Below, piece after piece: positions 1,297 through 51,625 of a stretch of DNA of 64,000 bases. The stretch lies in IMG/VR virus record IMGVR_UViG_3300047666_001531; one strand, given 5' to 3'. This stretch comes from a virus. Taxonomy: Duplodnaviria > Heunggongvirae > Uroviricota > Caudoviricetes. The position numbers and the translations under genes are program-made. How positions within the stretch are numbered: the stretch's first letter is position 1; each line of letters begins with the position of its first letter. The notes beneath the pieces are model-generated. The model did not search any database. It saw only the letters and a program-made list of their open reading frames with translations, and was not told the DNA's origin.

Positions 1297-1332
1297 TATT
1301 TAATCAATAAGATATTAAATCTGGAGTTCCCA

Positions 1333-3941: not shown

Positions 3942-3959
3942 CCTTCGTCAAAAGTAAAT

Positions 3960-3994
3960 AAAAGATTGACAAATTTATCATAATGAATATAATT
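3960..3994 (+). promoter_or_regulatory. class-A promoter (TTGACA, 16 nt spacer, TATAAT)
   Basis: aaaaGATTGACAAAtttatcataatgaaTATAAT. Confidence 0.65.
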
Positions 3995-4029
3995 AATACT
4001 GTAAATCACACACACAAGGAATACACAAA

Positions 4030-4473: not shown

Positions 4474-4540
4474 TTAACTGTTGGTAGGCGCTTTAAGCTA
4501 TTAGAGCAAGCTATGTGTTTATTGATTATGGCTGGCAGAT

Positions 4541-4568
4541 TATAATGATAAATTTGTCAATCTTTTTT
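4541..4568 (-). repeat. inverted, 6-bp-deleted copy of the 3960 class-A module
   Basis: Minus strand reads AAAAGATTGACAAATTTATCATTATAAT, which is the 3960 sequence minus AATGAA. The -35/-10 spacer is therefore only 10 nt. Confidence 0.5.
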
Positions 4569-4569
4569 G

Positions 4570-4598
4570 TTGACATGTAGCTTTTTTATATTTACTAT
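4570..4598 (+). promoter_or_regulatory. sigma70-like promoter (TTGACA, 17 nt spacer, TACTAT)
   Basis: Hexamers at 4570-4575 and 4593-4598, upstream of 4628. Confidence 0.45.
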
Positions 4599-4627: not shown

Positions 4628-6025
4628 ATGAAAAGAACACTAAAAACCACTTTGCTTATTGTCGCTATGGCGTTCAGTTTCACATCAGCGTCGAAAGATT
4701 TTGAAGAAAAAATTCTGGGTCTGCCAGATGAGTTAAAATCACCACGATTAACCGCTGAGCACCATGGTGATTTTAAGTTATCGACTGTCGCTAAACGATT
4801 GCAGAATTCATCATCAAAAACTCTTATGACGAACAAGCTTAAGCCCTTGATTGAAATTGACACGTTTTTAAAATTAAAAACCGACCCTACCCCTACCGAC
4901 TCCAAGTTTATTAAATATATGAGTTTGGTTGAAAGATATGGTCAAGCTAATGGTTTTGAGAAAAAGCGTGTAATGAAAGAAATCGAAGCATTTGCCACTG
5001 AAATACCTGAGCAAGATGTGTCGCCTTTGGCGGGTAAGACATTTTTGGTTAAGGCGGGTGATGTTGAGTATTCAGCTCCGTTTGATTTTGACAATATGAG
5101 TAAAGCAGTTCAAATGTTGAATGCTTCGTGTCGTTCGCTTGGCCTATGGAGTGATTCAGGGCTAAATGGTAATGAACGCTTGCAAAAAATGATTAATCGA
5201 AATATTGCGCTAGTGCATGGTGAATATGGGCTGAAACAATCATATGGCGGAAAAAAACGTAATTGCTTTGTAGAGCTGGTGTTTGACAATGAAGGGCTTG
5301 CAGAAAAGGTTGAAGAGGTCACTCATAGTGGTAATTTAACGCTATTTATTGAATTTGAAGTAGCTGGTAGCGTGATCGACGAACATATGATTGCGGTGGC
5401 ACGAAATCTTATAGTGACCGAATCCGAGGTTATCAAGGGTAAAGGTAGAGGTAGTGTTCAATATAACTATCTGACACATTATGCAGAGCCTAAATCTGTT
5501 TCTGAAAAACTCAATGCTAATATGTTTGTGGAAAACAATGCACTTTCCACATTAAATGCTAGTGATGTGCCTGTTGACGAAAAAACAATTGGTGCTTGGA
5601 ATGCTGAGTGGAACAGTGATACGGCTGTATTTCCGTTGCACGGGAAAGACCTGAGTATTTTGGATGATTCAGATTTTTTTATTAGAAAAACTGATAACAC
5701 CAGTTTTATGATCATGTCTTATACTGGTGATTGGGAGCACGGCGCAATTGGTAAATACGAAATTGATAAGTCGGGTAAATTTGCCTTGTTAACCCAGCTA
5801 TATAGCACGGGATATAGCTTGCCTGAACGTTTACTTGTTTTTGCTAATTTTTATGACAACAAAGTGTCCGAAGCTTTATTGTACGGCTTTGATTCTCGGT
5901 TGCAGATAAGAGCAAACAAGCCTTATAAAATGGATTCGTGGGAAAACATCGCGGCAGAATTAGGGTACACCGAGGGAGCGTTAAAGCCATATGTTAACTC
6001 CCTTCCCACCGCAGCATTGAAGTAG
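4628..6025 (+). CDS. secreted hypothetical protein, 465 aa
   Basis: N-terminal signal peptide MKRTLKTTLLIVAMAFSFTSA. AAGGAATAAcATG start. Terminator follows. Confidence 0.6.
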   Translation: MKRTLKTTLLIVAMAFSFTSASKDFEEKILGLPDELKSPRLTAEHHGDFKLSTVAKRLQNSSSKTLMTNKLKPLIEIDTFLKLKTDPTPTDSKFIKYMSLVERYGQANGFEKKRVMKEIEAFATEIPEQDVSPLAGKTFLVKAGDVEYSAPFDFDNMSKAVQMLNASCRSLGLWSDSGLNGNERLQKMINRNIALVHGEYGLKQSYGGKKRNCFVELVFDNEGLAEKVEEVTHSGNLTLFIEFEVAGSVIDEHMIAVARNLIVTESEVIKGKGRGSVQYNYLTHYAEPKSVSEKLNANMFVENNALSTLNASDVPVDEKTIGAWNAEWNSDTAVFPLHGKDLSILDDSDFFIRKTDNTSFMIMSYTGDWEHGAIGKYEIDKSGKFALLTQLYSTGYSLPERLLVFANFYDNKVSEALLYGFDSRLQIRANKPYKMDSWENIAAELGYTEGALKPYVNSLPTAALK

Positions 6026-6040
6026 AAGCATACTTTAACA

Positions 6041-6068
6041 ACCCCACTGCAACGTGGGGGTGTTTTTT
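6041..6068 (+). terminator. rho-independent terminator (ccccac..gtgggg, then T6)
   Basis: Hairpin plus T-run after the 6025 stop. Confidence 0.6.
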
Positions 6069-6136
6069 ATATAGTTTTTTAATCTGCTCTGACTATGATT
6101 AGAGAGTTAGTGCGAGTTTAGCTTAAAGGAAATACA

Positions 6137-7318
6137 ATGAAATTTAATCCATACACCCCAAAAGGTGGAGACCTACCTGTTAAATACTATAGTGTTGATG
6201 TGCCTGATGTTTCGATTGGTAAAAAGAAAGGTGTAGGCTTGTGCGTCATTGCACCTGATGAGTTTACCGCAACCCGAGTTAACAAAGAGTTGCTTTCGCA
6301 TGGTATAGACTTAAGTGAGCTTTCGTTGACGGGACTCTTACCTATATTGTCAGGTGCGGGTTTGATTGAACGACCTACTCGCCACAGTAGAGGTTATAAT
6401 CCTCGCAGTTACCCCAATAAAGGTAGTAGAGGAGGGAGCTTTCGTGGTGGTTTTAGCGAGAACCTGATCCCTAAAACATCGAGTGATCTTATTGTGGAGG
6501 CGCAGTCGCTTGATATCAGCACAGCACCATTTAAGGTATCATCGCAAAAGAATTTAGCGGTGGTTGTTTCAAGTAACGAGCCGAATATTTTGGTAAACCT
6601 TTTGCGTCAAAGTAAACTGGTGCATGTAAATGCGGCGCACTTGGATGTGGCGGATATTGTGGTCACCAACATGAAAACGGGTGATACATTATTTATTGAA
6701 CGCAAAACAGTTCAAGACATGTACCAAAGCGTAATGAACGGCGCACATTCGCACGATCAGAGTGAAAGAATGTTTGACGCAGTGCAACAGCTTAAGTTGG
6801 AAGGCAAGCGAGCGCGTGCCATATGGATAGTAGAAGCCCAGCAAAATGGTAAGCATTTATTGGATAATGCGTTGCCGAAGATCCAGAATATGAGTGGGCT
6901 GGTAAATTACTTTGATATGGTGAATGAACAATCGGTTCATCAGTCTTATAGTGTGGAACATACTGCGTACTTAGTGTGTAAGTACGCACAGGGATTCATG
7001 GAGCAATGTTTACCTTATCGTGTTGAAACGAATAACCCGAAAGTGCATCGCTCAGGCAAGGAACGTATCGCTGCTAAAGTCGTTGACGGTGTGCGAGCTT
7101 CCGGTGAAGTGGGCGTTAAACGTCATACGGCAAGGGATATCACCAATATGCTGAGCTACGTCCCGTCTATTACGACGAAGGTAGCCAAAAACTTGGCCAA
7201 CACTGGCAAGACGTTCTCAGAAGTCACTTTAATGACTATCGAAGAGCTTGAAGCAATAGATGGTGTTGGTAAGAAGTCCGCCCAGAAAATATTTGACGAC
7301 TTTAACGCTAAACTCTAA
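6137..7318 (+). CDS. ERCC4/XPF-Mus81-type nuclease domain protein with C-terminal HhH, 393 aa
   Basis: GDTLFIERKTVQDMYQSVMNG matches the GDxn-ERKxxxD core of ERCC4 nucleases. C-terminus IEELEAIDGVGKKSAQKIF is a helix-hairpin-helix. N-terminus is RGG-rich. Confidence 0.5.
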   Translation: MKFNPYTPKGGDLPVKYYSVDVPDVSIGKKKGVGLCVIAPDEFTATRVNKELLSHGIDLSELSLTGLLPILSGAGLIERPTRHSRGYNPRSYPNKGSRGGSFRGGFSENLIPKTSSDLIVEAQSLDISTAPFKVSSQKNLAVVVSSNEPNILVNLLRQSKLVHVNAAHLDVADIVVTNMKTGDTLFIERKTVQDMYQSVMNGAHSHDQSERMFDAVQQLKLEGKRARAIWIVEAQQNGKHLLDNALPKIQNMSGLVNYFDMVNEQSVHQSYSVEHTAYLVCKYAQGFMEQCLPYRVETNNPKVHRSGKERIAAKVVDGVRASGEVGVKRHTARDITNMLSYVPSITTKVAKNLANTGKTFSEVTLMTIEELEAIDGVGKKSAQKIFDDFNAKL

Positions 7319-8837: not shown

Positions 8838-8894
8838 AAAATGATTGACAACGCCTCAAAAATGATTAACAATAGAACTCAATATGATAATAAA
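8838..8894 (+). promoter_or_regulatory. class-A promoter with tandemly duplicated -35 module
   Basis: aaaATGATTGACAAcgcctcaaaaATGATTAACAAtagaactcaataTGaTAATAA. Only the second copy has correct 16 nt spacing. Confidence 0.5.
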
Positions 8895-14678: not shown

Positions 14679-14714
14679 AACTCTATCATAATGAAATGAA
14701 ATGTCAATCATTTT
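14679..14714 (-). promoter_or_regulatory. class-A promoter (minus strand)
   Basis: Reverse complement reads aaaaATGATTGACAtttcatttcattaTGaTAGAGT. Confidence 0.55.
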
Positions 14715-17318: not shown

Positions 17319-17354
17319 CATATTATCATATTGAAATGTCTTGTCAATCGTTTA
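17319..17354 (-). promoter_or_regulatory. class-A promoter (minus strand)
   Basis: Reverse complement reads aaacGATTGACAAgacatttcaataTGaTAATAT. Confidence 0.55.
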
Positions 17355-17440: not shown

Positions 17441-17477
17441 AAAATGATTGACAAAATAGCGTATTTGCATTACAATT
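17441..17477 (+). promoter_or_regulatory. class-A promoter (TTGACA, 17 nt spacer, TACAAT)
   Basis: caaaaATGATTGACAAAatagcgtatttgcatTACAAT. Divergent from the 17319 copy. Confidence 0.55.
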
Positions 17478-17507
17478 GTTTTATTGAAAGTTGAAGAGAA
17501 TTATTAC

Positions 17508-18053: not shown

Positions 18054-18091
18054 TAAAAATGATTGATAAAAAACCTCAATATGATACAGTG
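18054..18091 (+). promoter_or_regulatory. class-A promoter variant (TTGATA, 16 nt spacer, TG-a-TACAGT)
   Basis: aaaaATGATTGATAAAaaacctcaataTGaTACAGT. Confidence 0.5.
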
Positions 18092-18133
18092 GTGTTATAG
18101 CTACAAATCACCCATACACGCATAGGAATTATT

Positions 18134-19014: not shown

Positions 19015-19050
19015 CAAATGATTGACAAGAATTATCATTATGATAAACTA
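19015..19050 (+). promoter_or_regulatory. class-A promoter
   Basis: acaaATGATTGACAAgaattatcattaTGaTAAACT. Confidence 0.6.
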
Positions 19051-19079
19051 TCATCATTAAAATAAAACACATACTCCAC

Positions 19080-20118: not shown

Positions 20119-20148
20119 TTGCTTTTAATCGTGTACACGAGTATAATA
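20119..20148 (+). promoter_or_regulatory. class-B promoter: TTGCTT, 17 nt spacer containing palindrome TCGTGTACACGA, TATAAT
   Basis: Perfect 12-bp palindrome at 20129-20140 between the hexamers. Confidence 0.55.
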
Positions 20149-21312: not shown

Positions 21313-21348
21313 AAAATGATTGACAAAATAGTTTATTGTGATAAAGTG
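21313..21348 (+). promoter_or_regulatory. class-A promoter
   Basis: aaaaATGATTGACAAAatagtttattgTGaTAAAGT. Confidence 0.6.
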
Positions 21349-21392
21349 TGTGTATTGAAGTTAATTGTACATTTTACATAGGAAAATTCTGT

Positions 21393-22155: not shown

Positions 22156-22191
22156 TAAAAGATTGACAAAGTGGTTCATTGTGATAAAATT
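22156..22191 (+). promoter_or_regulatory. class-A promoter
   Basis: aaaaGATTGACAAAgtggttcattgTGaTAAAAT. Confidence 0.6.
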
Positions 22192-22232
22192 TGTATATTG
22201 GATCTAACGCACAATTTACAAAGGAAAGCACT

Positions 22233-24129: not shown

Positions 24130-24290
24130 TCACTATAGAAAAAGTTGAATTAAGTAGTTCAGCTTTTTCTATCTGAAATTCACTCAGTATCACTAGAGAA
24201 CATTCCTCTGTCGTGAGGTTTTATGCGGTGTTGCTAATTTGTAGTATAAAATATATACTACATGGGAATAAGGCAACATTTGGGATTGAT

Positions 24291-25031
24291 ATGCGAGGAT
24301 ATAGACCGATAAAACGGCTGATCAGAGCGCAAAAAAAGGGCGAAGGTAAAGCCGAGGTTGCAACAAAGAAACAGTTTAAAAACATTCTTTGGCAATCTTC
24401 TCGTGGTTCGCTTGGCAGGAGAAATGTAGCGATAGTTTGGATGTTGTTCGGTAGTGGTTGCAGGATTAACGAAGTGGCAAAATTCAAGGTTTCTGATCTA
24501 ATCAGAGAAACCAATGAATTAAGAACTACTTTTGTTATCAAGGGTGGTTACACCAAAACAGGCAAGCCAAGAGCCGCTTATATTCTCTATAAGAGCCACC
24601 GCAGAGCGATTGAGGCGTGGATTGATGAACTTATAGAAGAAGGTGTAGGTCAATCTGGTGAAGAGTCTTATAGAGGCTTACGAAAAGATTATCCTTTATT
24701 TGCCATTACTAAAAAAGGTCGATATTGGCGCAAGATGGCATTTAGGGACAAAAAGTACAAAGATGCTGAAGGGAACATTAAAACCACAAAGGTTTGTGGC
24801 TCGTTACAAAATCTGATTAGTGAGCTATTTAAGAACGCTGGTTTACATGGCGGCTCATCACATTCAGGGCGAAGAACGCTTGCTACTTGGCTTGACCAAA
24901 AAGGGATTGAGCTTAAAACGATACAACTTATTTTGGGGCATGAAGATGCCAACATGACACTTGAATATATTGATCCCAATTTTGAACGTATACAAGCTGC
25001 TTTTGATAAAACATTAATCAATATTGATTAG
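24291..25031 (+). CDS. tyrosine recombinase, catalytic domain only, about 247 aa
   Basis: GCRINEV (Arg I), HSGRRTLAT (HxxR) and LGHEDANMTLEYI (His-II plus nucleophile Tyr). No N-terminal core-binding domain. Confidence 0.65.
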   Translation: MRGYRPIKRLIRAQKKGEGKAEVATKKQFKNILWQSSRGSLGRRNVAIVWMLFGSGCRINEVAKFKVSDLIRETNELRTTFVIKGGYTKTGKPRAAYILYKSHRRAIEAWIDELIEEGVGQSGEESYRGLRKDYPLFAITKKGRYWRKMAFRDKKYKDAEGNIKTTKVCGSLQNLISELFKNAGLHGGSSHSGRRTLATWLDQKGIELKTIQLILGHEDANMTLEYIDPNFERIQAAFDKTLINID

Positions 25032-25043: not shown

Positions 25044-25259
25044 ATGACTGAGAAAAAAGAGAAACCTAACAAAGATCTTGAGTACAACAAGAAACGCATA
25101 CCTATCTTACGTGTTGAGGCTACAACGGCTGATAGCGAAGATGAAATTGAAGAAATGTTTCAGATGAAAGACCATGTTATTGAAAAATCAGGTTCGGCAA
25201 AACAAGGCATTATTGACATGTATAGGTTTGCCAAAAAGAACGGTTATTTTAATAAATAA
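25044..25259 (+). CDS. hypothetical protein, 71 aa
   Basis: gaggtaaattaaaATG start. Confidence 0.4.
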   Translation: MTEKKEKPNKDLEYNKKRIPILRVEATTADSEDEIEEMFQMKDHVIEKSGSAKQGIIDMYRFAKKNGYFNK

Positions 25260-25262: not shown

Positions 25263-25291
25263 TTGACTTTCTCGTGTACACGAGTATAATG
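25263..25291 (+). promoter_or_regulatory. class-B promoter: TTGACT, 16 nt spacer containing palindrome CTCGTGTACACGAG, TATAAT
   Basis: 14-bp perfect palindrome at 25271-25284. Confidence 0.6.
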
Positions 25292-25337
25292 TTTGGTATA
25301 GAAATTAAACAAATTTAGTTAAACAAGGAATAAACAC

Positions 25338-25583
25338 ATGTCAGAAATAAACGATAAAGCGATTGAGTTTATTGCTAATAACTTATCGAACAAAGCAGCG
25401 CAAGAAGAAGGTTATGTAGGTGCTCCTAGATGGGGTTGCCTAAGAGAAGATCTAAAAGAGAAGTTTTTAGGTGAGGCAAAGTTGCTTGTTGCCGAATGGT
25501 ATAATGACGAAATGAAAGCTTTGTCAGCTAGAAAGCCCACCAGCGACTTACTAAAGAATGCGACTATTTTAACAAGGGAATAA
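25338..25583 (+). CDS. hypothetical protein, 81 aa
   Basis: caaggaataaacacATG start. Confidence 0.45.
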   Translation: MSEINDKAIEFIANNLSNKAAQEEGYVGAPRWGCLREDLKEKFLGEAKLLVAEWYNDEMKALSARKPTSDLLKNATILTRE

Positions 25584-25588
25584 ATATA

Positions 25589-25840
25589 ATGAAAAGAAAG
25601 ACAATATACGCAGTGTTAATTAGCACCCTTTTCCTATCCGCACTCCATTTCTTTTTGTCTTGCATATACCACTATGCAACATCGTCAAGCGATGTATCAG
25701 GGGTTTTCGATCTATTAACTTGGTCTTACCCATATCGAAGAGATGTAGCTATTGTTAACTTAATGATAGTTTTTTCTGGCATATCTGCCTCTGTGATTGG
25801 TTATATAGTCAGACTGCATGAAATGGCGACAGGTGAATAA
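25589..25840 (+). CDS. small membrane protein, 83 aa
   Basis: Two hydrophobic helices. aagggaataaatataATG start. Confidence 0.4.
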   Translation: MKRKTIYAVLISTLFLSALHFFLSCIYHYATSSSDVSGVFDLLTWSYPYRRDVAIVNLMIVFSGISASVIGYIVRLHEMATGE

Positions 25841-25844
25841 AAAG

Positions 25845-26042
25845 ATGGAAATTAAGAGCAATGAAATTCAACTTATAATGTCTAGTTTGCTTTTGCAAAA
25901 ACAAGCCCTGACCGAAGCTGGCGGAGCTGCACTCTCAAAAACAAAACTGTGCGATACTTTATTTGCAAAACTTGAAACTTTTTTGGGTGAGAGTAACGTC
26001 AAAATAACATCGGACTCTACCAATATTGCGACAAGGGAATAA
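25845..26042 (+). CDS. hypothetical protein, 65 aa
   Basis: Refined to the ATG with aggtgaataaaaag SD. Confidence 0.4.
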   Translation: MEIKSNEIQLIMSSLLLQKQALTEAGGAALSKTKLCDTLFAKLETFLGESNVKITSDSTNIATRE

Positions 26043-26046
26043 AGAA

Positions 26047-29401: not shown

Positions 29402-29430
29402 GAGTGTGCCTCTTTATTAAATATACAACA

Positions 29431-29466
29431 ACTTTATCATAATGAACTAAAATGTCAATCATTAAT
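29431..29466 (-). promoter_or_regulatory. class-A promoter (minus strand)
   Basis: Reverse complement reads ttaATGATTGACAttttagttcattaTGaTAAAGT. Confidence 0.55.
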
Positions 29467-30378: not shown

Positions 30379-30409
30379 ACGTAATATCGCCACGATGGTG
30401 ATATTACGT
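30379..30409. promoter_or_regulatory. inverted repeat ACGTAATATC, 11 nt spacer, GATATTACGT upstream of yqiJ
   Basis: 10-bp perfect inverted repeat 25 nt upstream of the yqiJ ATG. Confidence 0.45.
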
Positions 30410-30433
30410 GGCAAAGAAGCTAGGAAAACCTAT

Positions 30434-31054
30434 ATGTTCATTGAATTTTTAACCCACGAGGCGAATGCCCCGTATTTTTTCGCGCTATGCTTTTTAGTAC
30501 TGCTTTTCGCTTTTGAAATACTAGGTATGCTTATTGGTATGAGTGTAAGTCATGCGTGTGACAGTATCATTGATTTTGATGTTGATACCGACATGGGTGG
30601 TCATTTATCACTATTGGGGCTTGGTAAAGTGCCGTTGATTGTGTGGTTGACGTTTTTGATGGGCTTGTTTGTTATTTTTGGTTATGGCTTTAATGCGGTC
30701 ACCAATTCGATTGTTGGCTATACACCAATATGGATATCGATAGTGCCTGTTTCTATTGCCGCTTTTGTTTTTAATGGTGTTTTATGCCGTGCTTTTGCAA
30801 AGGTGTTCCCTAAGCTTGAGACAACGGCGGTAAGTACGGACACATTTAAGGGTAGAGTGGCTAGGTTAACGCTTGGTGATGCTACGTACACAGATTTTGC
30901 TATGGGTGTTGTGCAAGATGAACATGATCATACTCATAACATAAGAGTTCAAGCGATGGATGATGGCGTTGTCATCGAACAAGGTAATGAAGTCATTCTC
31001 GTTGAAAAAGTAAAGGATAGCACTATTTGGTTAGCTATCCCTTATGAAATATAA
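30434..31054 (+). CDS. yqiJ: YqiJ-like inner-membrane protein (NfeD-like partner of flotillin), 206 aa
   Basis: Refined start MFIEFLTHEANAPYFFALCFLVLL. Four TM N-terminal half plus soluble C-terminal beta domain. Immediately upstream of the flotillin gene, as in E. coli yqiJK. Confidence 0.5.
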   Translation: MFIEFLTHEANAPYFFALCFLVLLFAFEILGMLIGMSVSHACDSIIDFDVDTDMGGHLSLLGLGKVPLIVWLTFLMGLFVIFGYGFNAVTNSIVGYTPIWISIVPVSIAAFVFNGVLCRAFAKVFPKLETTAVSTDTFKGRVARLTLGDATYTDFAMGVVQDEHDHTHNIRVQAMDDGVVIEQGNEVILVEKVKDSTIWLAIPYEI

Positions 31055-31114
31055 GTCGCATTTTGCGCATATTTTTTTTAAATATTTAAACTATCTATTT
31101 TGGAGTAAGAGTTA

Positions 31115-32896
31115 ATGGAATTAAGTAATATTGTTGGTTATGCGGTCGCCGCAGGTGTCGTTTTAATTGTGCTTTTTATTGTTGGATTTTCTTTATCGAG
31201 AATGTATCGAAAATCGACCAAAGATACAGCGTTGGTTAAGACAGGTTTAGGTGGTGAAAAAGTCATCACAACTGGCGGATTTTTGCTGATACCTGGGTTT
31301 CAAGAATTAATGAAGGTCAACATGCGTACCTTGCGCATCCGTGTTGAGCGTAAAGAAAATGAGGGTCTGATCACGTTGGACTGTATGCGTGTGGACATAG
31401 CAAGTGATTTCTTTGTACGCGTAGCGTCAGATGATGAATCAATTAAAAAGGCCGCACAAGCACTAGGCGATCGTTTATCAGATCCAGATAAAGTAAAAGA
31501 GTTGATGGAGTCAAAGTTCGTTGGTGCCCTTCGTTCAGCAGCCGCATCAATGTCAATGGATGAGTTGCATAAAAACCGCCCTGAATTTGTTTTAGCGGTG
31601 CAAAAAGCAATCGCTGAAGAACTTGCCCAAAATGGTCTTGAGCTTGAGTCAGTTTCACTAACCAGCTTCGACCAAACTAAGCTAGATTTCTTTGATCCTG
31701 ACAATGCATTTGACGCCCAAGGTCGAGCGAAGCTTGCTGAAACTATTGAAGGTCGCAAGAAGCGCACTAACGAAGTTGAACAAGAAAACCGTATTGCCAT
31801 CGAGCAGCGCAATCTTGAAGCTGAAAAAGAGTCACTAGCGATCAAGCAGCAAAAACGTGAAGCTGAAATTTTGCAAGAGCAAGAAATTCAAGTTAAAGAA
31901 GCTGAGCAAAAAGCGTTAATTGCTGGCAAACGTGAAGAGCAAGAACAAAAAGAGCGTCAAGCTGAAATTTCGAAAAACCGAGCTATCGAATCGTCTGAAA
32001 TCGAAAAGAAATTGGCGTTAGATAAAATGAAAATTGAGCAAAATCGTGATTTGGAAGTTGCAGAGCAAGATCGCCAAATCATAATTGCACAAAAATCTGA
32101 GGCGGAAAGTGCCGCTCGTGCAAAAGCCGCAGAAGCGGAAAAAGATCGGGTTGAAAAAGAAGAGGCGGTAATCACTGCCGGAAAAGTAGCCGGCGCAGAA
32201 CGTCAGAAACAGATAGATGTTATCGATGCTCGCCGTAAAGCTGAACGTGAAGCTGTTGCCATTACTGTTGCTGCTGAAGCCTCGAAACAAGCGGCGCAAG
32301 ATGATGCTGAATCTAAGTTAATCGTTGCCAAAGCTGATGCTGATGCAATTCTGATGCGTGCAGACGCTGATGAGAAGAAATATGACGTTGATGCAGCTGG
32401 TCGTCGTAAGTTAAATGAAGCGGATAACGCCCTGAGTGCTGAACAAGTAGAGCTACGTCGTGCATTAGCTACGTTAGAAGCATTGCCACAAGTTATTGCG
32501 CAAGCGGTTGAGCCTCTTAAGAACATCGATGGTATCAAAATCTTGCAAGGTTATAACGGCACCAGCAATGTTGGTTCGGGTAATGATGGTAGTGGTGCTT
32601 CTGGCAACCCTATGTCACAGTTAACGAACGCTGCATTAGCATACAAAGCACAATCACCTGTAGTTACCGCCTTGCTTAGTGAGTTAGGTCTTGGTGGTTC
32701 GCTTGAAGAGCTTGTAGATGGCAAATCAATTGCAAGTTTGATGTCTAACGCGACCAATAGTGTTAAGTCAATCGCTGACAGCACACCAAAGGCTGATAAT
32801 GGTTCAGCTGATGTGAGTGACAATCCTGATTTTACGTCGGTTGAAAATTTCACAACAGCAGAAGCTGACGTTTCAGAACGAAACGCCGACAGCTAA
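31115..32896 (+). CDS. yqiK: flotillin-family SPFH/band-7 protein (YqiK-like), 593 aa
   Basis: N-terminal TM, SPFH domain (LVKTGLGGEKVITTGG...), then a long coiled-coil of EA/EQ/KR repeats typical of flotillins. Confidence 0.7.
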   Translation: MELSNIVGYAVAAGVVLIVLFIVGFSLSRMYRKSTKDTALVKTGLGGEKVITTGGFLLIPGFQELMKVNMRTLRIRVERKENEGLITLDCMRVDIASDFFVRVASDDESIKKAAQALGDRLSDPDKVKELMESKFVGALRSAAASMSMDELHKNRPEFVLAVQKAIAEELAQNGLELESVSLTSFDQTKLDFFDPDNAFDAQGRAKLAETIEGRKKRTNEVEQENRIAIEQRNLEAEKESLAIKQQKREAEILQEQEIQVKEAEQKALIAGKREEQEQKERQAEISKNRAIESSEIEKKLALDKMKIEQNRDLEVAEQDRQIIIAQKSEAESAARAKAAEAEKDRVEKEEAVITAGKVAGAERQKQIDVIDARRKAEREAVAITVAAEASKQAAQDDAESKLIVAKADADAILMRADADEKKYDVDAAGRRKLNEADNALSAEQVELRRALATLEALPQVIAQAVEPLKNIDGIKILQGYNGTSNVGSGNDGSGASGNPMSQLTNAALAYKAQSPVVTALLSELGLGGSLEELVDGKSIASLMSNATNSVKSIADSTPKADNGSADVSDNPDFTSVENFTTAEADVSERNADS

Positions 32897-33011: not shown

Positions 33012-33047
33012 AAAACGATTGACAAAATTCTTTATTTTGATAAAGTG
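33012..33047 (+). promoter_or_regulatory. class-A promoter
   Basis: aaaacGATTGACAAAattctttatttTGaTAAAGT. Confidence 0.6.
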
Positions 33048-33070
33048 GTCTTATTGAAAGAGAGAAACTT

Positions 33071-34068: not shown

Positions 34069-34392
34069 ATGTCATTAGAGTTAATGTCAGATGAACAAGT
34101 GCTAGAGGCGCTTGGTGAAAAGTTTGAAGCGTTTAGATTAAGCAAAGGGCTTCGCGATCAGGATGTACGTGAAACTGGTGGTGTAAGTAAAGACGCTCTA
34201 CATAAATTTAAAAATCAGGGTGGTAATATCACGTTGATTAATTTTGTTAAAATTCTTCGGGGTTCTGGCGAGCTTTCTGCGCTTGAGCGATTGTTCAATG
34301 TCCCCCCTAGTCTCCCTAAAAAAGACAGTAAGAAGCCTGTAGCAAGGATCCGCAAGAAGAAGGTTAATAAGCCGATACGTTGGAAGGAGTAG
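34069..34392 (+). CDS. hipB: HipB-like XRE-family HTH antitoxin, 107 aa
   Basis: Small HTH protein immediately upstream of, and 6 nt from, hipA. ggctttaacc direct repeats in its promoter region. Confidence 0.55.
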   Translation: MSLELMSDEQVLEALGEKFEAFRLSKGLRDQDVRETGGVSKDALHKFKNQGGNITLINFVKILRGSGELSALERLFNVPPSLPKKDSKKPVARIRKKKVNKPIRWKE

Positions 34393-34398
34393 CAATAA

Positions 34399-35772
34399 AT
34401 GTCTCAAGTTATAGAAGTTAAATTGTGGGGTGTCACCGTTGGCCGCATGGGTTATGTGGATGACACTGGTGTTGCGTTATTTGAATACGACGAAGCATTT
34501 TTAGGCTCAGATGTATGTATTTCGCCAATCCACATGCCAACAAGCCAAGAACGTTTTCAATTCCCTGACATAAGTGAAAAAACCTTCCACGGTCTACCAG
34601 GTGTGTTTGCAGATTCTTTGCCTGATACATTTGGTAACCAGCTGATTGACTTGTACATGGCTGAAAAGGGCATTGCATCGAATGAAATCACCGCCCTTGA
34701 TCGACTGCTTTATATCGGCAATAGAGGCATGGGTGCTTTGGAGTACTCACCTTCAACAAAATTTGGTGAAGAAACGCCAACAGTAGCGTTAGATATCCAG
34801 ATGCTTTCAGAGTTAGCTTCTATGGTGGCATCTAAATCGAAAGAAAAAAGCGATAAAATTCTGCATTCAAAAGATGCGGCTACCGCGATCAAGTTACTAC
34901 GTATTGGTAGTAGTGCCGGCGGTGCACGTTCAAAAGCGTTGGTAAGTACGTCACCAAATGGTGAATTTCTTGATGGTACTTACGACCACGGTACGGATCA
35001 CAAGTACTGGTTGATGAAATTCGACAGTGAGGGTAATCGTGATCGTGATGGTTTCGATCCTAAAGGTATGACGAAGGTTGAGTATATCTACGGTGAGATT
35101 GCAAAAAACTTGGGGCTTGATGTGCCTAATTTTGATTATCACGAAGAAAACGGTGATTTTCATTTCATGATTGAACGTTTTGACCGGTTGAAAGGTGAAA
35201 ATAAGATGGACAAGGTGCATTATGCGTCTTGGTCTGGCCTTGAGCATGCTCACAGGGACACTACGGGTGCATATTCTTATGAACAGCTAATCTTGCTAGC
35301 AAGAAAGTTAAAATTGCCTCAGACGTCGATTGAGGAGCTTTATCGTCGAGCTGTTTTCAATGTAATTGGTCGCAATCAAGATGATCACACTAAGAACTTT
35401 GGCTTTTTAATGAATAAGTCTGGTGAGTGGAGTTTATCAAAAGCGTTTGACTTAACGTATTCTTATGATCCTCAAGGTCGTTGGACACGTGTTCATCAGA
35501 TAAAACTTAATGGCAAGCAAGATGATTTCACTTATGATGATTTGGCGAAGCTTGGGCGTCACTGTAACCTGTCTTTGCCTGCAATTAGAGAGATAGTTGC
35601 AAGAACGGTAGATGGCTTTAATGCTTTTGATGATCTGGCCAAAAAATTGGAAGTGACACCAGAGTTAAGAACGACAGTTATTCAAAATATGAGAACGAGC
35701 AGTATTGTTGTGCCTCAGCCTCAAAAACCTAGCAAAACTGTGGATGCACCCAGCTTTAAAAAAGGGCGTTGA
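34399..35772 (+). CDS. hipA: HipA-family serine/threonine kinase toxin, 457 aa
   Basis: N-terminal LWGVTVG...ALFEY module and catalytic block QDDHTKNFGFLM...AFDLTYS. Confidence 0.8.
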   Translation: MSQVIEVKLWGVTVGRMGYVDDTGVALFEYDEAFLGSDVCISPIHMPTSQERFQFPDISEKTFHGLPGVFADSLPDTFGNQLIDLYMAEKGIASNEITALDRLLYIGNRGMGALEYSPSTKFGEETPTVALDIQMLSELASMVASKSKEKSDKILHSKDAATAIKLLRIGSSAGGARSKALVSTSPNGEFLDGTYDHGTDHKYWLMKFDSEGNRDRDGFDPKGMTKVEYIYGEIAKNLGLDVPNFDYHEENGDFHFMIERFDRLKGENKMDKVHYASWSGLEHAHRDTTGAYSYEQLILLARKLKLPQTSIEELYRRAVFNVIGRNQDDHTKNFGFLMNKSGEWSLSKAFDLTYSYDPQGRWTRVHQIKLNGKQDDFTYDDLAKLGRHCNLSLPAIREIVARTVDGFNAFDDLAKKLEVTPELRTTVIQNMRTSSIVVPQPQKPSKTVDAPSFKKGR

Positions 35773-40637: not shown

Positions 40638-40934
40638 ATGATGGACTTAAATTACTTGTTGATTAACAATAGCAATCAGCTATTGGGGTTTGATACAGTG
40701 CTAAAGGCTCAAGAGTATCTTGATGCTAACACCCACGAGTTCGAGCACAAAAAGGTGTTTCACCCTTGCTTGTTTGAAGATCTATATAGTGGTGTTTTAG
40801 CTGGTTGTGCCATGGCGGTAATGTTTAAAAATAAAAAATTCAAATTAAGGGCAGTTGGTAGTGTCGATTGGATAATAGAAGATCACTCAAATACTGACTT
40901 GTACTTTCAAAACAAAAAAACGATTGACAAATAA
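40638..40934 (+). CDS. hypothetical protein, 98 aa
   Basis: gagaaggcgtttaattatcATG start. Stop lies 3 nt after the TTGACA of the next promoter. Confidence 0.4.
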   Translation: MMDLNYLLINNSNQLLGFDTVLKAQEYLDANTHEFEHKKVFHPCLFEDLYSGVLAGCAMAVMFKNKKFKLRAVGSVDWIIEDHSNTDLYFQNKKTIDK

Positions 40935-40952
40935 TTTTAAAATGATAAAATA
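40917..40952 (+). promoter_or_regulatory. class-A promoter
   Basis: aaaacGATTGACAAAtaattttaaaaTGaTAAAAT. Confidence 0.6.
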
Positions 40953-41028
40953 GTTTCATGATGTGAGTTGCTTAGCACGATGCTTAGTGTGACCACGAAA
41001 AGATGTAAAACTACTTGGATGTTAGATC

Positions 41029-42762: not shown

Positions 42763-42932
42763 AGATTTGAAAAGCTCTTTTCTTCAATTTCTTTGTTTTT
42801 TGTTTTATATGCCGTTAATCCAATCAACGTAAATAATGCTACTAGTCCAATGTAAATCATATATAACTCCAAATTAATGTAGAGTTATTTTAGTCGAATT
42901 GCCTTTAAATTCAACTAAATCCACCTTATAGA

Positions 42933-42969
42933 TAAAAGATTGACAAAATTATCAAATTGAAATATTATG
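42933..42969 (+). promoter_or_regulatory. class-A promoter (TTGACA, 17 nt spacer, TATTAT)
   Basis: aaaaGATTGACAAAattatcaaattgaaaTATTAT. Confidence 0.55.
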
Positions 42970-42997: not shown

Positions 42998-43732
42998 ATG
43001 AAACAAGAAGCAGATATAGTCGCAGCAATGATTGCAGCAAGTTATGAAGTTGTTAAAGAAAAATACCGTAGTTACGTGGATGAAAACTTCACAAGCTATG
43101 TTCACTCGCTTGACTTTGTTGCTGGCAGAGGACGTAGAACATCGCACAAAAAGCGCGGTACTAAGCATATAATCACCTATGGCGTAAAGGCAGTTGTCAG
43201 TAAGATGCAGAGTAAGCAAATTGCTTCCAGATGGTTGTCTGGCCGAGAGATTGTTGATATGGGCTTCTTTGGTGGTGAGTTGACGTTAAAGAACAGCTTG
43301 ATCCACACTATCATTCATGAGTATGCACATTACTTGCAAGTTCTGGAGGGTGGAAGAACCAAAAACAGCATTCATAATTGTTACTTTTATTCTGTCCTTC
43401 GTCGCCTTTACGATGATGGTTTGGCTGTAGAGTTATCGGCATATTTTGATAATGATCCGGTGTTAAAGGAATTGTGCTTTAAAGATGTTGTTAATAGTGA
43501 TATCGCCCCTAATGACAATACAGATATTTATAGTCCGCAGACTGTGAATAAGGGCGATGTAGTGATATTCGATGCTACGTTTAAAATGTTAGGTGTTGTT
43601 GAAGTCGAAGGGGCAGTTAAAAGGGCAAACACTAAAACTGTTTCGGTCAGTATAAAAAACCCTTTAGATAAATTTATGGCGCTTGATTATAGAGTGCCGT
43701 ATCACCTGATTAAAAACAAAAGTAAGAGATAA
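42998..43732 (+). CDS. SprT-like zinc metallopeptidase domain protein, 244 aa
   Basis: LIHTIIHEYAHYLQ HExxH block after a basic region, the SprT/WLM pattern. Confidence 0.5.
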   Translation: MKQEADIVAAMIAASYEVVKEKYRSYVDENFTSYVHSLDFVAGRGRRTSHKKRGTKHIITYGVKAVVSKMQSKQIASRWLSGREIVDMGFFGGELTLKNSLIHTIIHEYAHYLQVLEGGRTKNSIHNCYFYSVLRRLYDDGLAVELSAYFDNDPVLKELCFKDVVNSDIAPNDNTDIYSPQTVNKGDVVIFDATFKMLGVVEVEGAVKRANTKTVSVSIKNPLDKFMALDYRVPYHLIKNKSKR

Positions 43733-43765
43733 ATGATTGACAATAAGTATCATTATGATAATATG
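43730..43765 (+). promoter_or_regulatory. class-A promoter
   Basis: agaTAAATGATTGACAAtaagtatcattaTGaTAATAT. The upstream gene's TAA stop lies at its 5' edge. Confidence 0.6.
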
Positions 43766-43812
43766 TGTATGTATTATAAATTAACTCATAAACTACACAC
43801 ACAGGACTCATT

Positions 43813-46640: not shown

Positions 46641-46719
46641 GGGTATAATCCTTTATATTTAAATTCCACAAGTTTATTTTAGCATGGTAGAGTGAGAATC
46701 CATCTAGCGAAAACCTAAA

Positions 46720-51373: not shown

Positions 51374-51389
51374 CAAGGGAATAAACACA

Positions 51390-51609: not shown

Positions 51610-51625
51610 CAGAGGAATGGATATA

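What the first reader, a model, noticed from the sequence alone, without database searches (positions are those of the whole stretch)
24291..25031. Catalytic-domain-only tyrosine recombinase embedded in the cassette region
The protein has the full R..HxxR..(H)..Y catalytic set: GCRINEV, HSGRRTLAT, LGHEDANMTLEYI. Even from the longest possible start it is only about 247-272 aa and begins directly in the catalytic domain. No N-terminal core-binding arm is present. That length matches FimB/FimE-type invertases or small cassette resolvases, not phage or ICE integrases and not IntI. It sits between an unknown 498-aa gene and a palindrome-controlled small-gene operon, not at an obvious island edge or beside a tRNA. 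It could be the enzyme that shuffles or inverts the promoter-bearing cassettes.
Basis: partly seen in the sequence, partly recalled or inferred. Interest (0 to 1): 0.55.

Follow-up and report, generated by a model that had tools for sequence, protein, structure and literature searches.

The report
Small recombinase with its own site
This is a real, unusually short DNA-cutting-and-rejoining enzyme gene that travels with its own recognition site on marine conjugative plasmids and related elements. Related copies are always joined to unrelated DNA at exactly that site, so it probably helps build mosaic plasmids rather than flip promoters.

Summary
ORF 24291-25031 (+) encodes a 246-aa tyrosine recombinase made of the catalytic domain only, with R58, K89, H191, R194, H217 and Y226. 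More than 130 homologues share its length and start.

It belongs to a narrow, uncharacterised family found on marine gammaproteobacterial conjugative plasmids and ICE-like elements.

New here: the gene carries a conserved cis site. Two inverted 9-12-bp boxes (ATTCCTCTG 24202-24210; CATGGGAAT 24261-24269) sit 62-63 bp apart in 62 of 83 homologous loci and bracket the gene's promoter.

Near-identical modules (90-99.7%) are joined to unrelated upstream DNA 0-5 nt outside the left box. That box therefore behaves as a recombination junction.

The box motif also recurs, strand-specifically, in front of downstream genes but not upstream ones.

I found no inverted variants.

Best reading (about 0.45): an autoregulated site-specific recombination module that works like F ResD/rfsF or TnpI/irs, forming and resolving cointegrates and so producing mosaics.

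Rivals are a tyrosine-recombinase-like MOB_M relaxase with its oriT, an integrase or integron-like cassette system, and a FimB/E-type invertase, which is unlikely.

Novelty: a new variant of a known kind.

The parts
24291..25031 (+). Recombinase CDS, 246 aa plus stop. It consists of the tyrosine-recombinase catalytic domain only, preceded by a conserved 24-residue N-terminal peptide (RPVKRL...GEGKAEV).
   Evidence: ORF. PF00589 only. Start and catalytic residues R58, K89, H191, R194, H217 and Y226 from the 32-sequence alignment. AF2 model pLDDT 88.9. Foldseek matches to IntI4, XerA and Cre.
24198..24210 (-). Box L: GAAC-ATTCCTCTG, the reverse complement of the box motif CAGAGGAAT. Its outer (left) edge is the junction where related modules meet unrelated DNA.
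   Evidence: Conserved in 62 of 83 unique homologous upstream regions at a fixed offset. In 126 of 226 related pairs, homology begins 1-10 nt left of ATTCC. Eight independent pairs that are 90-99.7% identical diverge 0-5 nt left of ATTCC.
24231..24259 (+). Sigma-70-like promoter TTGCTA-17-TATACT lying between the two boxes. The predicted transcription start falls in or next to Box R.
   Evidence: Consensus scan, 9 of 12 matches. TTG and -10-like elements recur at the same place in homologues. Function is inferred, not shown.
24240..24262 (.). Palindrome TGTAGTATA-AAATA-TATACTACA overlapping the -10 element. It is restricted to the closest relatives.
   Evidence: It is only partly kept in L003, L005, L083 and L084 and is absent in distant homologues. 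It is therefore not the family's conserved site.
24258..24275 (+). Box R: CTA-CATGGGAAT-AAGGCA, with the core CATGGGAAT at 24261-24269. It is inverted relative to Box L. The offset from ATTCC (24202) to TGGGAAT (24263) is 62 nt by the offset definition used.
   Evidence: Offset is 62-63 nt in 61 of 62 loci. The logo is gCtAcATtGGAATTTGGCAC. Complementarity to Box L spans about 9-10 positions with partial covariation.
25044..25259 (+). 71-aa ORF starting 12 nt after the recombinase stop. It is co-conserved with the recombinase only in the Alteromonas-like subgroup. It may be a small DNA-binding repressor; a beta-alpha-alpha (RHH-like) pattern is a guess.
   Evidence: tblastn hit in L003 at 52% identity. 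It lies inside the 1.15-kb shared block. No Pfam or PADLOC family. The single-sequence AF2 model has pLDDT 61, so it is inconclusive.
25263..25290 (+). Outward promoter TTGACT-16-TATAAT enclosing the operator-like palindrome TCGTGTACACGA (25272-25283). It drives the next genes and belongs to the conserved block.
   Evidence: Promoter scan, 11 of 12 matches. The palindrome occurs 3 times in the window against 0.12 expected. It is conserved in L003 and L083-L088.
25323..25337 (+). Box-like leader motif ACAAGGAAT-AAACAC just before the ATG at 25338. Homology with close relatives ends here, marking the right end of the shared 1.15-kb block (about 24162/24198 to 25336).
   Evidence: blastn block limits and alignment. 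Motif list.
25573..25581 (+). Box-like motif CAAGGGAAT in the leader of the 83-aa gene. Further copies are at 26032-26040 and 51374-51382. CAGAGGAAT, the reverse complement of Box L, occurs at 51610, 52239 and 53662.
   Evidence: Contigs L167 and L168 (same element, 99.99-100% identical to the window over the aligned stretches) carry an extra 82-aa gene plus a 469-bp duplicate, and the junctions fall inside GGAATAAA at 25577 and 26045.

Best explanation
The gene and the roughly 100 bp in front of it form a self-contained site-specific recombination module carried by conjugative plasmids and ICE-like elements of marine Gammaproteobacteria.

Proposed mechanism:
1. The 246-aa catalytic-domain-only tyrosine recombinase recognises a 9-12-bp motif, CA(T/A)(T/G)GGAAT.
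2. That motif is present twice in inverted orientation, 62-63 bp (about six helical turns) apart. One copy lies just upstream of the -35 element (Box L). The other lies at the predicted transcription start (Box R).
3. Binding to both boxes is inferred to autoregulate the gene.
4. Strand exchange is inferred to take place in the few base pairs at the outer edge of Box L. This box has one conserved arm and a variable outer arm.
5. Recombination between such sites on different replicons or copies forms and resolves cointegrates and multimers. Over evolutionary time this leaves the module joined to unrelated DNA exactly at Box L.

In function it works like F-plasmid ResD/rfsF, IncA/C RecHS or Tn4430/Tn5401 TnpI/irs. 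These are small recombinases with the site and promoter directly upstream, and often a toxin-antitoxin pair alongside.

Shown: domain content, catalytic residues, conserved boxes and spacing, the junction at Box L, and the neighbouring TA modules.

Inferred: that this protein binds the boxes, where it cuts, autoregulation, and the resolution role.
For: Protein:
- PF00589 only, full catalytic set, single-domain model.

Cis site:
- Box L and Box R occur in 62 of 83 unique loci at an offset of 62-63 nt, down to 35-50% protein identity.
- The boxes are inverted copies over about 9-10 positions and change together in part. Examples are CAAGGGAAT/ATTCCCTTG and TATTGGAAT/ATTCCAATA.
- A promoter lies between them.

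Junction:
- In 126 of 226 related pairs, homology starts 1-10 nt left of ATTCC. Only 2 pairs extend more than 200 nt upstream.
- Eight independent pairs with 90-99.7% identical modules have unrelated left flanks.
- L126, L131, L133 and L141 share one left flank but carry four different modules.
- Window relatives share only a 1.15-kb block.

Context:
- The closest annotated homologues lie on MOBH conjugative or mobilizable plasmids.
- RelE/ParE-HTH or PIN-antitoxin pairs lie directly downstream in 7 loci.

Precedents:
- F ResD is likewise PF00589-only (residues 51-240 of 268) and follows ccdAB.
- Homology breaks at rfsF in IncR plasmids (PMC9412624).
- RecHS forms and resolves cointegrates in IncA/C plasmids (PMC5587640). 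That paper also cites Lane et al. [quoted passage not shown]
- The irs site holds promoters and TnpI modulates expression, and TA pairs sit next to resolvase genes (PMC7157771).
Against: - No canonical core site was found. A canonical core would be two 10-14-bp inverted arms around a 6-8-bp spacer. The two boxes are about 53 bp apart.
- A resolution system does not explain why the box motif recurs in the leaders of downstream genes only.
- The shared block is often only 0.85-1.5 kb, with non-homologous DNA on both sides. This looks more like a small mobile unit than a backbone resolution locus.
- Some members sit in chromosomal contigs, for example Ningiella at 4.7 Mb. Some elements carry two paralogues.
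- Several copies are frameshifted or truncated: L001, L021, L024 and L143.
- Sequence relation to ResD is only generic, with hhalign probability 11%.
- No biochemical data exist for any family member that I could find.
Confidence: 0.45

Rival explanations
1. It is a tyrosine-recombinase-like conjugative relaxase (MOB_M type, like MobK, TcpM and MpsA). The Box L-promoter-Box R region is its oriT. The protein nicks one strand near Box L, and the gene array downstream is the leading region that enters the recipient first.
For: - Known TR-like relaxases lack the arm- and core-binding domains. MobK is about 28 kDa, and its oriT lies in the intergenic region preceding mobK, with inverted repeats and the mobK promoter (PMC8152469).
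- MOB_M relaxases are reported as often mis-annotated as integrases and as associated with MPF_G ICEs (bioRxiv 10.64898/2026.01.13.699239).
- The closest annotated homologue sits next to ICE-type (TIGR03751, TIGR03756) transfer genes.
- The module heads a unidirectional array of small genes, and the motif asymmetry is polar.
- 89 of 259 plasmids carrying distant homologues are typed 'non-mobilizable'.
- A sharp junction at one site is also what relaxase-mediated oriT recombination would leave (inference).
Against: - hhalign against TcpM gives only 9.9% probability over 32 columns.
- No MobM or TcpM-type model appears in the NCBIfam scan.
- Carriers L001 and L002 already have MOBH relaxases.
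- In L002 the module lies between transfer genes together with a TA pair, far from where SXT/IncC-type oriT is expected (placement from my own knowledge).
- The MOB_M profile of the preprint could not be run.
Confidence: 0.17
2. It is the integrase of a small integrative unit, or of an integron-like array. Box L is the left attachment junction. The directly oriented box-like motifs in front of downstream genes are secondary sites at which genes or gene groups are inserted, excised or exchanged.
For: - Cognate box 9-mers are enriched on the + strand downstream: 53 observed against 24.1 +/- 5.5 under permutation, with 0 of 2000 permutations reaching the observed value. They are not enriched on the - strand (8 against 7.7) or upstream (2 against 2.1).
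- ATTGGAAT occurs at 0.28 per kb downstream on the + strand, against 0.01-0.03 per kb elsewhere.
- The motif precedes 10.8% of downstream ORFs and 1.0% of upstream + strand ORFs, p = 1.3e-11.
- The motif variant tracks the locus's own boxes: CAAGGGAAT in L090, CAGAGGAAT in L098 and L101, TATGGGAAT in L142, TGTGGGAAT in L136.
- 9 of 84 downstream homology endpoints lie within 12 nt of such a motif, against 1.1 expected.
- The right end of the L093/L094 block falls exactly after AGAGGGAAT.
- The window block ends at ACAAGGAAT-AAACAC.
- The extra gene in L167 and L168 is bounded by GGAATAAA.
- In L002 a box-like site directly follows the TA pair.
- One full palindrome, CATTGGAAT-9-ATTCCCATG, occurs at L127:1175.
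Against: - Most right-hand junctions (75 of 84) are not at the motif.
- In the window's AT-rich element the motif (AAGGAAT) cannot be separated from a Shine-Dalgarno context, and overall enrichment there is weak: 12 observed against 7.8 expected.
- No direct repeat of an overlap sequence was seen at Box L and downstream sites (manual comparison).
- No empty site or circular junction was recovered.
- Related loci are not phylogenetically independent, so the permutation test overstates significance.
- The motif could be an RNA-level leader element shared by all genes of the array.
Confidence: 0.2
3. It is a FimB/FimE-like DNA invertase that flips the roughly 60-bp promoter segment between Box L and Box R, or other promoter-bearing segments such as 3960-4570, giving phase-variable expression.
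For: - The protein is catalytic-domain-only, like FimB and FimE.
- Inverted repeats bracket a promoter.
- There are weak partial hits to the invertase models NF007370 and NF007371.
- An inverted pair of promoter modules flanks 3960-4566.
Against: - None of 62 loci has the inter-box segment in the opposite orientation. The mean best forward score is 26.5 against -0.1 for reverse.
- About 53 bp between the sites is too short for synapsis of two tyrosine-recombinase sites (established knowledge).
- The invertase models score 18-24 bits against cutoffs of 221-222.
- The strict promoter module has 11 copies in the window but occurs only once among the 82 loci held at that point, in L035, which is not a family member. 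The box motif is absent from those modules.
Confidence: 0.03

Closest known systems
F-plasmid ResD (D protein) with rfsF, and the related Rsd/crs and IncR rfsF-ResD systems
   Same: - Small plasmid-borne tyrosine recombinase with only the PF00589 domain and a short N-terminal extension. ResD is 268 aa with the domain at 51-240.
- It sits next to a toxin-antitoxin pair.
- The recombinase doubles as a transcriptional repressor (title of Lane et al. 1986, cited in PMC5587640 and PMC7157771).
- Plasmid homology breaks at the site (PMC9412624).
   Different: - There is no specific sequence relationship; hhalign probability is 11% over 39 columns.
- rfsF is described as a short inverted repeat with a 6-8-bp spacer (PMC5587640). 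Here two boxes lie 62-63 bp apart and bracket the promoter.
- In this window no TA pair is adjacent.
- Box-like motifs in downstream gene leaders have no ResD counterpart.
TnpI / irs of Tn4430 and Tn5401 (Tn3-family tyrosine resolvase)
   Same: [quoted passage not shown]
- The site is made of several copies of one short motif in inverted and direct orientation.
- Promoters lie inside the site, and the recombinase modulates expression.
- Extra single binding motifs occur elsewhere in the element.
- TA pairs sit beside the resolvase (PMC7157771).
   Different: - No Tn3-type transposase or terminal repeats are nearby.
- The spacing and sequence of subsites differ.
- Hosts are marine Gammaproteobacteria, not Bacillus.
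MOB_M tyrosine-recombinase-like relaxases (MobK of pIGRK, TcpM of pCW3, MpsA of SGI1)
   Same: - Proteins of about 240-270 aa (TcpM 266 aa; MobK about 28 kDa, PMC8152469) that keep the recombinase catalytic residues but lack the core- and arm-binding domains.
- The cis site, with inverted repeats and the gene's promoter, lies directly upstream.
- They are carried by mobile elements linked to conjugation (PMC8152469, PMC6414798, bioRxiv 10.64898/2026.01.13.699239).
   Different: - There is no detectable specific similarity to TcpM.
- The carriers already encode MOBH relaxases.
- A 71-aa partner follows the gene, but nothing shows that it is MpsB-like.
FimB / FimE type 1 fimbrial switch recombinases
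   Same: - Catalytic-domain-only tyrosine recombinases.
- They act with short inverted repeats that bracket a promoter.
   Different: - Model scores are far below cutoff.
- The inter-repeat segment is about 53 bp, against about 300 bp for fimS (my own knowledge).
- No inverted alleles occur in 62 loci.
- This gene lies on plasmids and ICE-like elements, not next to a fimbrial operon.
Integron integrase IntI with attI and attC
   Same: - IntI4 is the best structural match.
- The recombinase is transcribed away from an adjacent primary site where variable DNA begins.
- There is an array of small co-oriented genes with a short recurring junction motif.
   Different: - TIGR02249 scores 34 bits against a cutoff of 265.
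- There is no N-terminal domain.
- No attC-like folded repeats were found; folding of the inter-box region is inconsistent.
- The variable junction is on the opposite side from the motif-bearing array.

Membership tests
Tyrosine recombinase superfamily (PF00589 catalytic domain) | Pfam PF00589 above the gathering score | tested here: met
   62.1 bits against a cutoff of 27.1, E 7e-17.
Tyrosine recombinase superfamily (PF00589 catalytic domain) | Catalytic R-K-H-R-H/W plus the Tyr nucleophile at aligned positions | tested here: met
   R58, K89, H191, R194 and Y226 are invariant, and H217 is at least 90% conserved, in 32 homologues. They align to XerA, XerD and IntI4.
Tyrosine recombinase superfamily (PF00589 catalytic domain) | Catalytic-domain fold | tested here: met
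   AF2 pLDDT 88.9. Foldseek E 3e-8 to IntI4, XerA, XerH, Cre and lambda Int.
Canonical 'simple' recombinases (Xer/Cre-like, core-binding plus catalytic domains) | N-terminal core-binding domain of about 90-110 aa | tested here: not met
   Only about 24 residues precede the catalytic domain. XerC, XerD and XerA models score 42-56 bits against cutoffs of 220-335.
FimB/FimE-type DNA invertases | Score above the NCBIfam invertase model cutoffs (NF007370, NF007371) | tested here: not met
   23.6 and 17.8 bits against cutoffs of 221 and 222, with partial matches only.
FimB/FimE-type DNA invertases | Invertible segment found in both orientations between the inverted repeats | tested here: not met
   0 of 62 loci are inverted.
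ResD/rfsF-type plasmid multimer resolution systems | Small catalytic-domain recombinase on a plasmid, adjacent to stability (TA) genes | tested here: met
   The architecture is the same as F ResD. The family lies on plasmids. TA pairs lie directly downstream in 7 homologous loci, though not in this window.
ResD/rfsF-type plasmid multimer resolution systems | Specific sequence homology to ResD or Rsd | tested here: not met
   hhalign probability 11%, covering only the generic HxxR..LGH stretch.
ResD/rfsF-type plasmid multimer resolution systems | Core site of two 10-14-bp inverted arms around a 6-8-bp spacer | tested here: inconclusive
   Conserved boxes are 62-63 bp apart. Box L is partly palindromic (GGGAAT-ATTCCC) in some loci. 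The 24240-24262 palindrome is lineage-specific.
ResD/rfsF-type plasmid multimer resolution systems | Resolves dimers and forms cointegrates in vivo | not testable with these tools
   There is indirect support only: homology junctions at Box L.
MOB_M tyrosine-recombinase-like relaxases | Sequence or profile membership (TcpM, MobK or MpsA profile) | tested here: inconclusive
   hhalign against TcpM gives 9.9% probability. MobK and MpsA sequences and the published profile were not available.
MOB_M tyrosine-recombinase-like relaxases | Strand-specific nicking at an adjacent oriT and helper-dependent transfer | not testable with these tools
   The cis region upstream resembles the pIGRK arrangement described in PMC8152469, but no assay was possible.
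Integron integrase (IntI) | IntI model score, and attC-bearing cassettes | tested here: not met
   TIGR02249 scores 34.3 against 265, and NF011946 scores 19.8 against 435. No attC-like structured repeats were found.
Phage/ICE arm-type integrases | Arm-binding and core-binding N-terminal domains; position at an element edge next to a tRNA or att repeat | tested here: not met
   The protein has a single domain. There are no tRNA genes in 64 kb. There are no phage homologues.

The most novel reading that the evidence does not exclude
The recombinase heads a new kind of gene-array system on conjugative elements. A catalytic-domain-only tyrosine recombinase would use a one-armed 9-12-bp site that doubles as the 5' leader of each downstream gene. 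Genes could then be inserted, lost or exchanged at those leaders, as in an integron but without attC hairpins. Box L would be the fixed outer junction.

Equally unexcluded is a variant of this reading. The protein could be a dual recombinase and repressor that binds every leader motif and shuts the array down after the element has established itself in a new host.
Probability: 0.15. Interest if true: 0.85.

Novelty: new variant of a known kind. Interest (0 to 1): 0.6.

Why it matters
Small catalytic-domain-only tyrosine recombinases are routinely annotated 'site-specific integrase' and then ignored. A published classification of tyrosine recombinases is built on enzymes that have a core-binding domain (PMC8138268).

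This family now has three things that make it testable:
- a defined cis site with strikingly fixed geometry;
- comparative evidence that recombination really happens at one edge of that site;
- a polar relationship to the array of small, mostly unknown genes that fills large marine plasmids and ICE-like elements.

If the module is a resolution and cointegration system, it explains how these elements become mosaics. If it is a relaxase, many plasmids typed 'non-mobilizable' may in fact be mobilizable. If it is an array-building system, it would be a second, integron-independent route to assembling gene cassettes.

All three options can be separated with simple plasmid assays.

Tried and rejected
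1. Longer upstream start or missing domain. Rejected: the aligned homologues start at the same Met, and Pfam and the AF2 model show one domain.

2. Phage origin. No nucleotide or protein hits in the phage collection.

3. A close relative of the window in PLSDB. There is only a 296-bp hit to an Alteromonas mediterranea plasmid.

4. Conserved neighbouring genes. None beyond the 71-aa ORF in close relatives and TA pairs in some loci. The last upstream ORFs (by sequence listing) showed no obvious shared gene.

5. The repeated promoter modules as recombination targets. The strict module occurs only once among the 82 loci held at that point, in a non-family locus. My first pattern had the wrong spacing and found nothing.

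6. Box motif scattered through the window as sites. The exact motif is not enriched there.

7. The inter-box region as an attC-like or RNA hairpin. The boxes often pair in folds, but the interior is not consistently structured. 24 of 62 loci have a mismatch at position 5, which fits protein recognition better than base pairing.

8. A sigma-54 promoter at TGGCAC in Box R. By eye, the spacing and the -12 element do not fit.

9. Promoter inversion. No inverted alleles.

10. Defence-system membership. No PADLOC hits for the gene or its neighbours.

11. Direct-repeat 'overlap' sequences at Box L and downstream motifs. None were seen by manual comparison.

12. Retrieving MobK (pIGRK) and Lane et al. 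1986. Neither is held.

13. Fold of the 71-aa protein. The single-sequence model is too weak to use.
Full report
**1. The observation**

The ORF exists as described. It runs 24213..25031 on the + strand from a GTG (272 aa). The ATG at 24291 gives 246 aa.

Pfam finds only the Phage_integrase catalytic domain PF00589 (E 7e-17). It covers residues 51-258 of the long version, that is, from about residue 25 of the 246-aa protein. No NCBIfam model comes near its cutoff. Xer models score 42-56 bits against 220-335, IntI scores 34 against 265, and the FimB/E-type invertase models score 18-24 against 221-222.

A database search returned 138 homologues. The 120 best listed are 229-293 aa, mostly 245-265 aa, and carry PF00589 only.

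In an alignment of 32 homologues all begin at the same M..RPVKRL..GEGKAEV peptide. R58, K89, H191, R194 and Y226 are invariant, and H217 is conserved in at least 90%. The start is therefore 24291, and there is no hidden N-terminal domain.

An AlphaFold model built on that alignment (pLDDT 88.9) is a single catalytic-fold domain. It has a low-confidence N-terminal peptide and a four-strand, basic beta insertion at about 139-168. Foldseek matches IntI4, XerA, XerH, the Tn1549 integrase, Cre and lambda Int at E 3e-8 to 1e-4.

An exhaustive search of 1.8 billion cluster representatives shows that the family proper is narrow. There are 13 clusters at E <= 1e-30 and 146 at E <= 1e-10.

**2. Where it lives**

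- The window is 36-42% G+C. It is mostly + strand small ORFs of unknown function, mixed with accessory genes: MFS, HipA, flotillin/YqiJ, DsbD, ERCC4, GmrSD_N, RNase H and cpYpsA.
- It has no tRNA.
- It has no phage relatives and no close PLSDB relative.
- The identical protein occurs on 22 contigs. Of the 22 collection blocks, 10 have a longest carrying contig of 0.2-1 Mb.
- The best annotated homologues lie on a Microbulbifer MOBH conjugative plasmid. There the gene comes just after ICE-type transfer genes and before a long array of small + strand genes. Another lies on a Pseudoalteromonas MOBH plasmid, between transfer genes and next to a RelE/ParE-HTH pair.
- More distant homologues (about 30% identity, 223-231 aa) sit in similar arrays on Pseudomonas, Vibrio and Aeromonas plasmids.
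- Genome and metagenome scans gave about 100 further loci in Alteromonas, Glaciecola, Marinobacter, Thiodiazotropha and others.

**3. A conserved cis site**

Upstream regions of loci with only about 50% protein identity still share two boxes. Box L is (G)AAnATTCCCATG. Box R is CATTGGAATTTGGCAC. The cores are reverse complements of each other.

In 62 of 83 unique upstream regions a strict pattern finds both boxes. The offset is 62 nt in 27 loci, 63 nt in 34 and 64 nt in 1. Information content peaks on AA-ATTCC-ATG and CAT-GGAATTTGGCA.

The boxes partly co-vary. Examples are CAAGGGAAT with ATTCCCTTG and TATTGGAAT with ATTCCAATA. However, 24 of 62 loci carry a mismatch at one position, and predicted folds of the interior are inconsistent. 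This fits two binding sites for one protein better than a base-paired stem.

In the window, Box L is 24202-24210 (ATTCCTCTG) and Box R is 24261-24269 (CATGGGAAT). A TTGCTA-17-TATACT promoter lies between them at 24231-24259. Box L therefore lies just upstream of the -35 element, and Box R lies at the predicted transcription start.

A few loci carry a second, direct Box R copy over the start codon.

That the recombinase binds these boxes and autoregulates is an inference. It rests on the geometry and on precedent (TnpI/irs, PMC7157771; the miniF D protein, cited in PMC5587640).

**4. Box L is a recombination junction**

Close relatives of the window (78-89% nucleotide identity) share only a 1.15-kb block, about 24162/24198 to 25336. 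The block contains:
- the site;
- the recombinase;
- a 71-aa ORF;
- an outward promoter with the palindrome TCGTGTACACGA;
- a leader that ends at the next ATG.

The flanks are unrelated.

Across all family loci there are 226 ordered pairs whose homology covers the recombinase. In 126 of them the left end of homology lies 1-10 nt left of ATTCC, and in 29 more it lies 11-20 nt left. Only 2 pairs extend more than 200 nt upstream.

Eight independent pairs with 90-99.7% identical modules have completely different DNA from 0-5 nt left of ATTCC. These are L083/89, L093/94, L096/97, L099/101, L107/111, L123/143, L126/128 and L157/159.

Conversely, L126, L131, L133 and L141 share one left flank but carry four different modules.

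Right-hand ends are not at one site.

This is the pattern left by site-specific exchange at a site with one conserved arm. It parallels the homology breaks at rfsF in IncR plasmids (PMC9412624) and the cointegration and resolution at RecHS in IncA/C plasmids (PMC5587640).

**5. What it is not**

- Not a promoter switch. None of 62 loci has the inter-box segment inverted, and about 53 bp is too short for synapsis.
- Not acting on the repeated promoter modules. GATTGACAA-N9-ATTRTGATAA has 11 strict copies in the window and more than 20 by the repeat finder. The strict module occurs only once in the 82 loci held at that point, in L035, which is not a family member.
- Not a known defence component.

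**6. An unexpected polarity**

The locus-specific box 9-mer recurs on the + strand downstream of the recombinase. It sits right after stop codons and before the start of successive genes.
- L138 has 7 copies of YATTGGAATAAT in 6.7 kb.
- L017 and L015 have 3-4 copies of CATTGGAATAAA.
- L090 has CAAGGGAAT.
- L098 and L101 have CAGAGGAAT, which is the reverse complement of their Box L.
- L142 has TATGGGAAT and L136 has TGTGGGAAT.

Permuting box assignments among 59 loci gives 53 observed against 24.1 +/- 5.5 for the downstream + strand (0 of 2000 permutations). The - strand gives 8 against 7.7, and upstream gives 2 against 2.1.

ATTGGAAT occurs at 0.28 per kb downstream on the + strand in loci whose own box is TTGGAAT. 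Elsewhere it occurs at 0.01-0.03 per kb.

The motif precedes 10.8% of downstream + strand ORFs and 1.0% of upstream ones (p = 1.3e-11).

Some mosaic junctions fall on it. Nine of 84 downstream homology endpoints lie within 12 nt of it, against 1.1 expected. The L093/L094 block ends exactly after AGAGGGAAT. The window's shared block ends at ACAAGGAAT-AAACAC. Contigs of the same element, L167 and L168, carry an extra 82-aa gene plus a 469-bp duplicate, and the junctions lie inside GGAATAAA.

Caveats:
- In this AT-rich window the motif overlaps a Shine-Dalgarno context and is only weakly enriched.
- Most junctions are not at the motif.
- The loci are phylogenetically related.
- An RNA-level leader function is not excluded.

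**7. Mechanism and rivals**

I rank four readings.

a. Autoregulated site-specific recombination module, about 0.45. It would form and resolve cointegrates and multimers at Box L and work like ResD/rfsF, RecHS or TnpI/irs. Supporting points:
- F ResD is likewise PF00589-only and follows ccdAB.
- TA pairs follow the gene in 7 loci.
- The site contains the promoter.
- There is a junction at the site.

b. Integrase or integron-like array system using the leader motifs, about 0.20. It is supported by section 6 and by a single full palindrome, CATTGGAAT-9-ATTCCCATG, at L127:1175.

c. MOB_M tyrosine-recombinase-like relaxase with oriT upstream, about 0.17. MobK, TcpM and MpsA lack the DNA-binding domains, and MobK's oriT with its inverted repeats and promoter precedes the gene (PMC8152469, PMC6414798). 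MOB_M is reported as common in MPF_G ICEs (bioRxiv 10.64898/2026.01.13.699239). However, hhalign to TcpM gives only 9.9% probability, and the carriers already have MOBH relaxases.

d. FimB/E-like invertase, about 0.03.

Sequence alone cannot separate recombinase from relaxase, because both keep the same catalytic residues.

**8. Novelty**

The protein class is known: short catalytic-domain-only tyrosine recombinases with an adjacent site. This family, its fixed two-box geometry around the promoter, the sharp one-sided junction and the polar leader motif are not described in any paper I could find.

I rate it a new variant of a known kind, with moderate to high interest because the alternatives are directly testable.

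Noticed in passing
window 1261-1307, 3955-3987, 4542-4566, 8858-8889, 14679-14712, 17319-17352, 17441-17487, 18056-18102, 19015-19061, 21313-21359, 22156-22202, 29430-29463, 33012-33058, 40917-40963, 42929-42961, 43730-43776, 46711-46736, 53262-53297, 54889-54935: A strongly conserved promoter module, AAAATGATTGACAAA-N-TTCATTATGATAAAAT (TTGACA, extended -10), often containing an internal dyad (AATGAT..ATCATT or TGAAAGATT..AATCTTTCA). It heads operons on both strands. The strict form has 11 copies against 0.06 expected. It looks like a regulon of one element-encoded repressor. The strict form occurs only once among the 82 other loci held at that point, in L035, which is not a family member.
   Followed up: partly
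window 20129-20140, 25272-25283, 48646-48657: The palindrome TCGTGTACACGA (one copy with a single mismatch) lies between the -35 and -10 of outward promoters. There are 3 copies against 0.12 expected. It is conserved after the 71-aa ORF in relatives L003 and L083-L088, and L084 has a second copy. It is probably the operator of a small repressor, possibly the 71-aa protein.
   Followed up: partly
window 25577-26045; L167 11287-12465: Contigs carrying the same element (99.99-100% identical to the window over the aligned stretches) have an additional 82-aa membrane-protein gene followed by a second copy of the 469-bp segment 25577-26045. The window looks like the deletion product of recombination between the two copies. 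The junctions fall in the GGAATAAA leader motif.
   Followed up: yes
recombinase residues 1-24 and about 139-168 (window 24291-24362 and about 24705-24794): The family has an invariant basic N-terminal peptide (R5, P6, R9, L10, G17, G19, A21). It also has a lysine- and arginine-rich four-strand beta insertion (W146, R147, K154, Y156, V168, C169). Either could replace the missing core-binding domain in DNA recognition.
   Followed up: no
L127 1175-1201: A full palindromic site, ATCATTGGAAT-agagcatct-ATTCCCATGAT, built from that locus's own box motif. It lies 4.8 kb upstream of the recombinase in an intergenic gap at the start of a + strand gene run. It is the only such site in 2.1 Mb of fetched loci.
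   Followed up: partly
L013 and L021 (same 93-kb Thiodiazotropha contig); L006 4866-5480; L019 about 5986-6651: Some elements carry two diverged paralogues of this recombinase a few kb to 27 kb apart. A subgroup (L001, L012, L016, L018, L021, L125) keeps Box L but replaces Box R with a TATCACA..TGTGATA dyad.
   Followed up: no
L001 11824-12557, L021, L024, L143: Several family members are frameshifted or truncated pseudogenes. In one case (L143) homology stops inside the gene. The function is therefore dispensable or frequently lost.
   Followed up: no
window 34069-35772, 30395-32896, 55992-57818, 6137-7318, 43813-45597: Accessory cargo in the same window:
- a HipA-family kinase (34399-35772) preceded by a small upstream ORF (34069-34392);
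- a YqiJ/flotillin pair;
- DsbD;
- an ERCC4-HhH nuclease;
- a GHKL ATPase.

Elsewhere in the window there are matches to cpYpsA, HAD_SAK_2, GmrSD_N and RNase H. This mix is typical of anti-defence and stability regions of conjugative elements.
   Followed up: partly
window 24135-24172: A 15-bp-arm AT-rich hairpin, ATAGAAAAAGTTGAA-ttaagtag-TTCAGCTTTTTCTAT, lies just after the 498-aa gene. Close relatives carry unrelated terminator-like hairpins at the same place. It marks the end of the upstream unit, immediately before the Box L junction.
   Followed up: no
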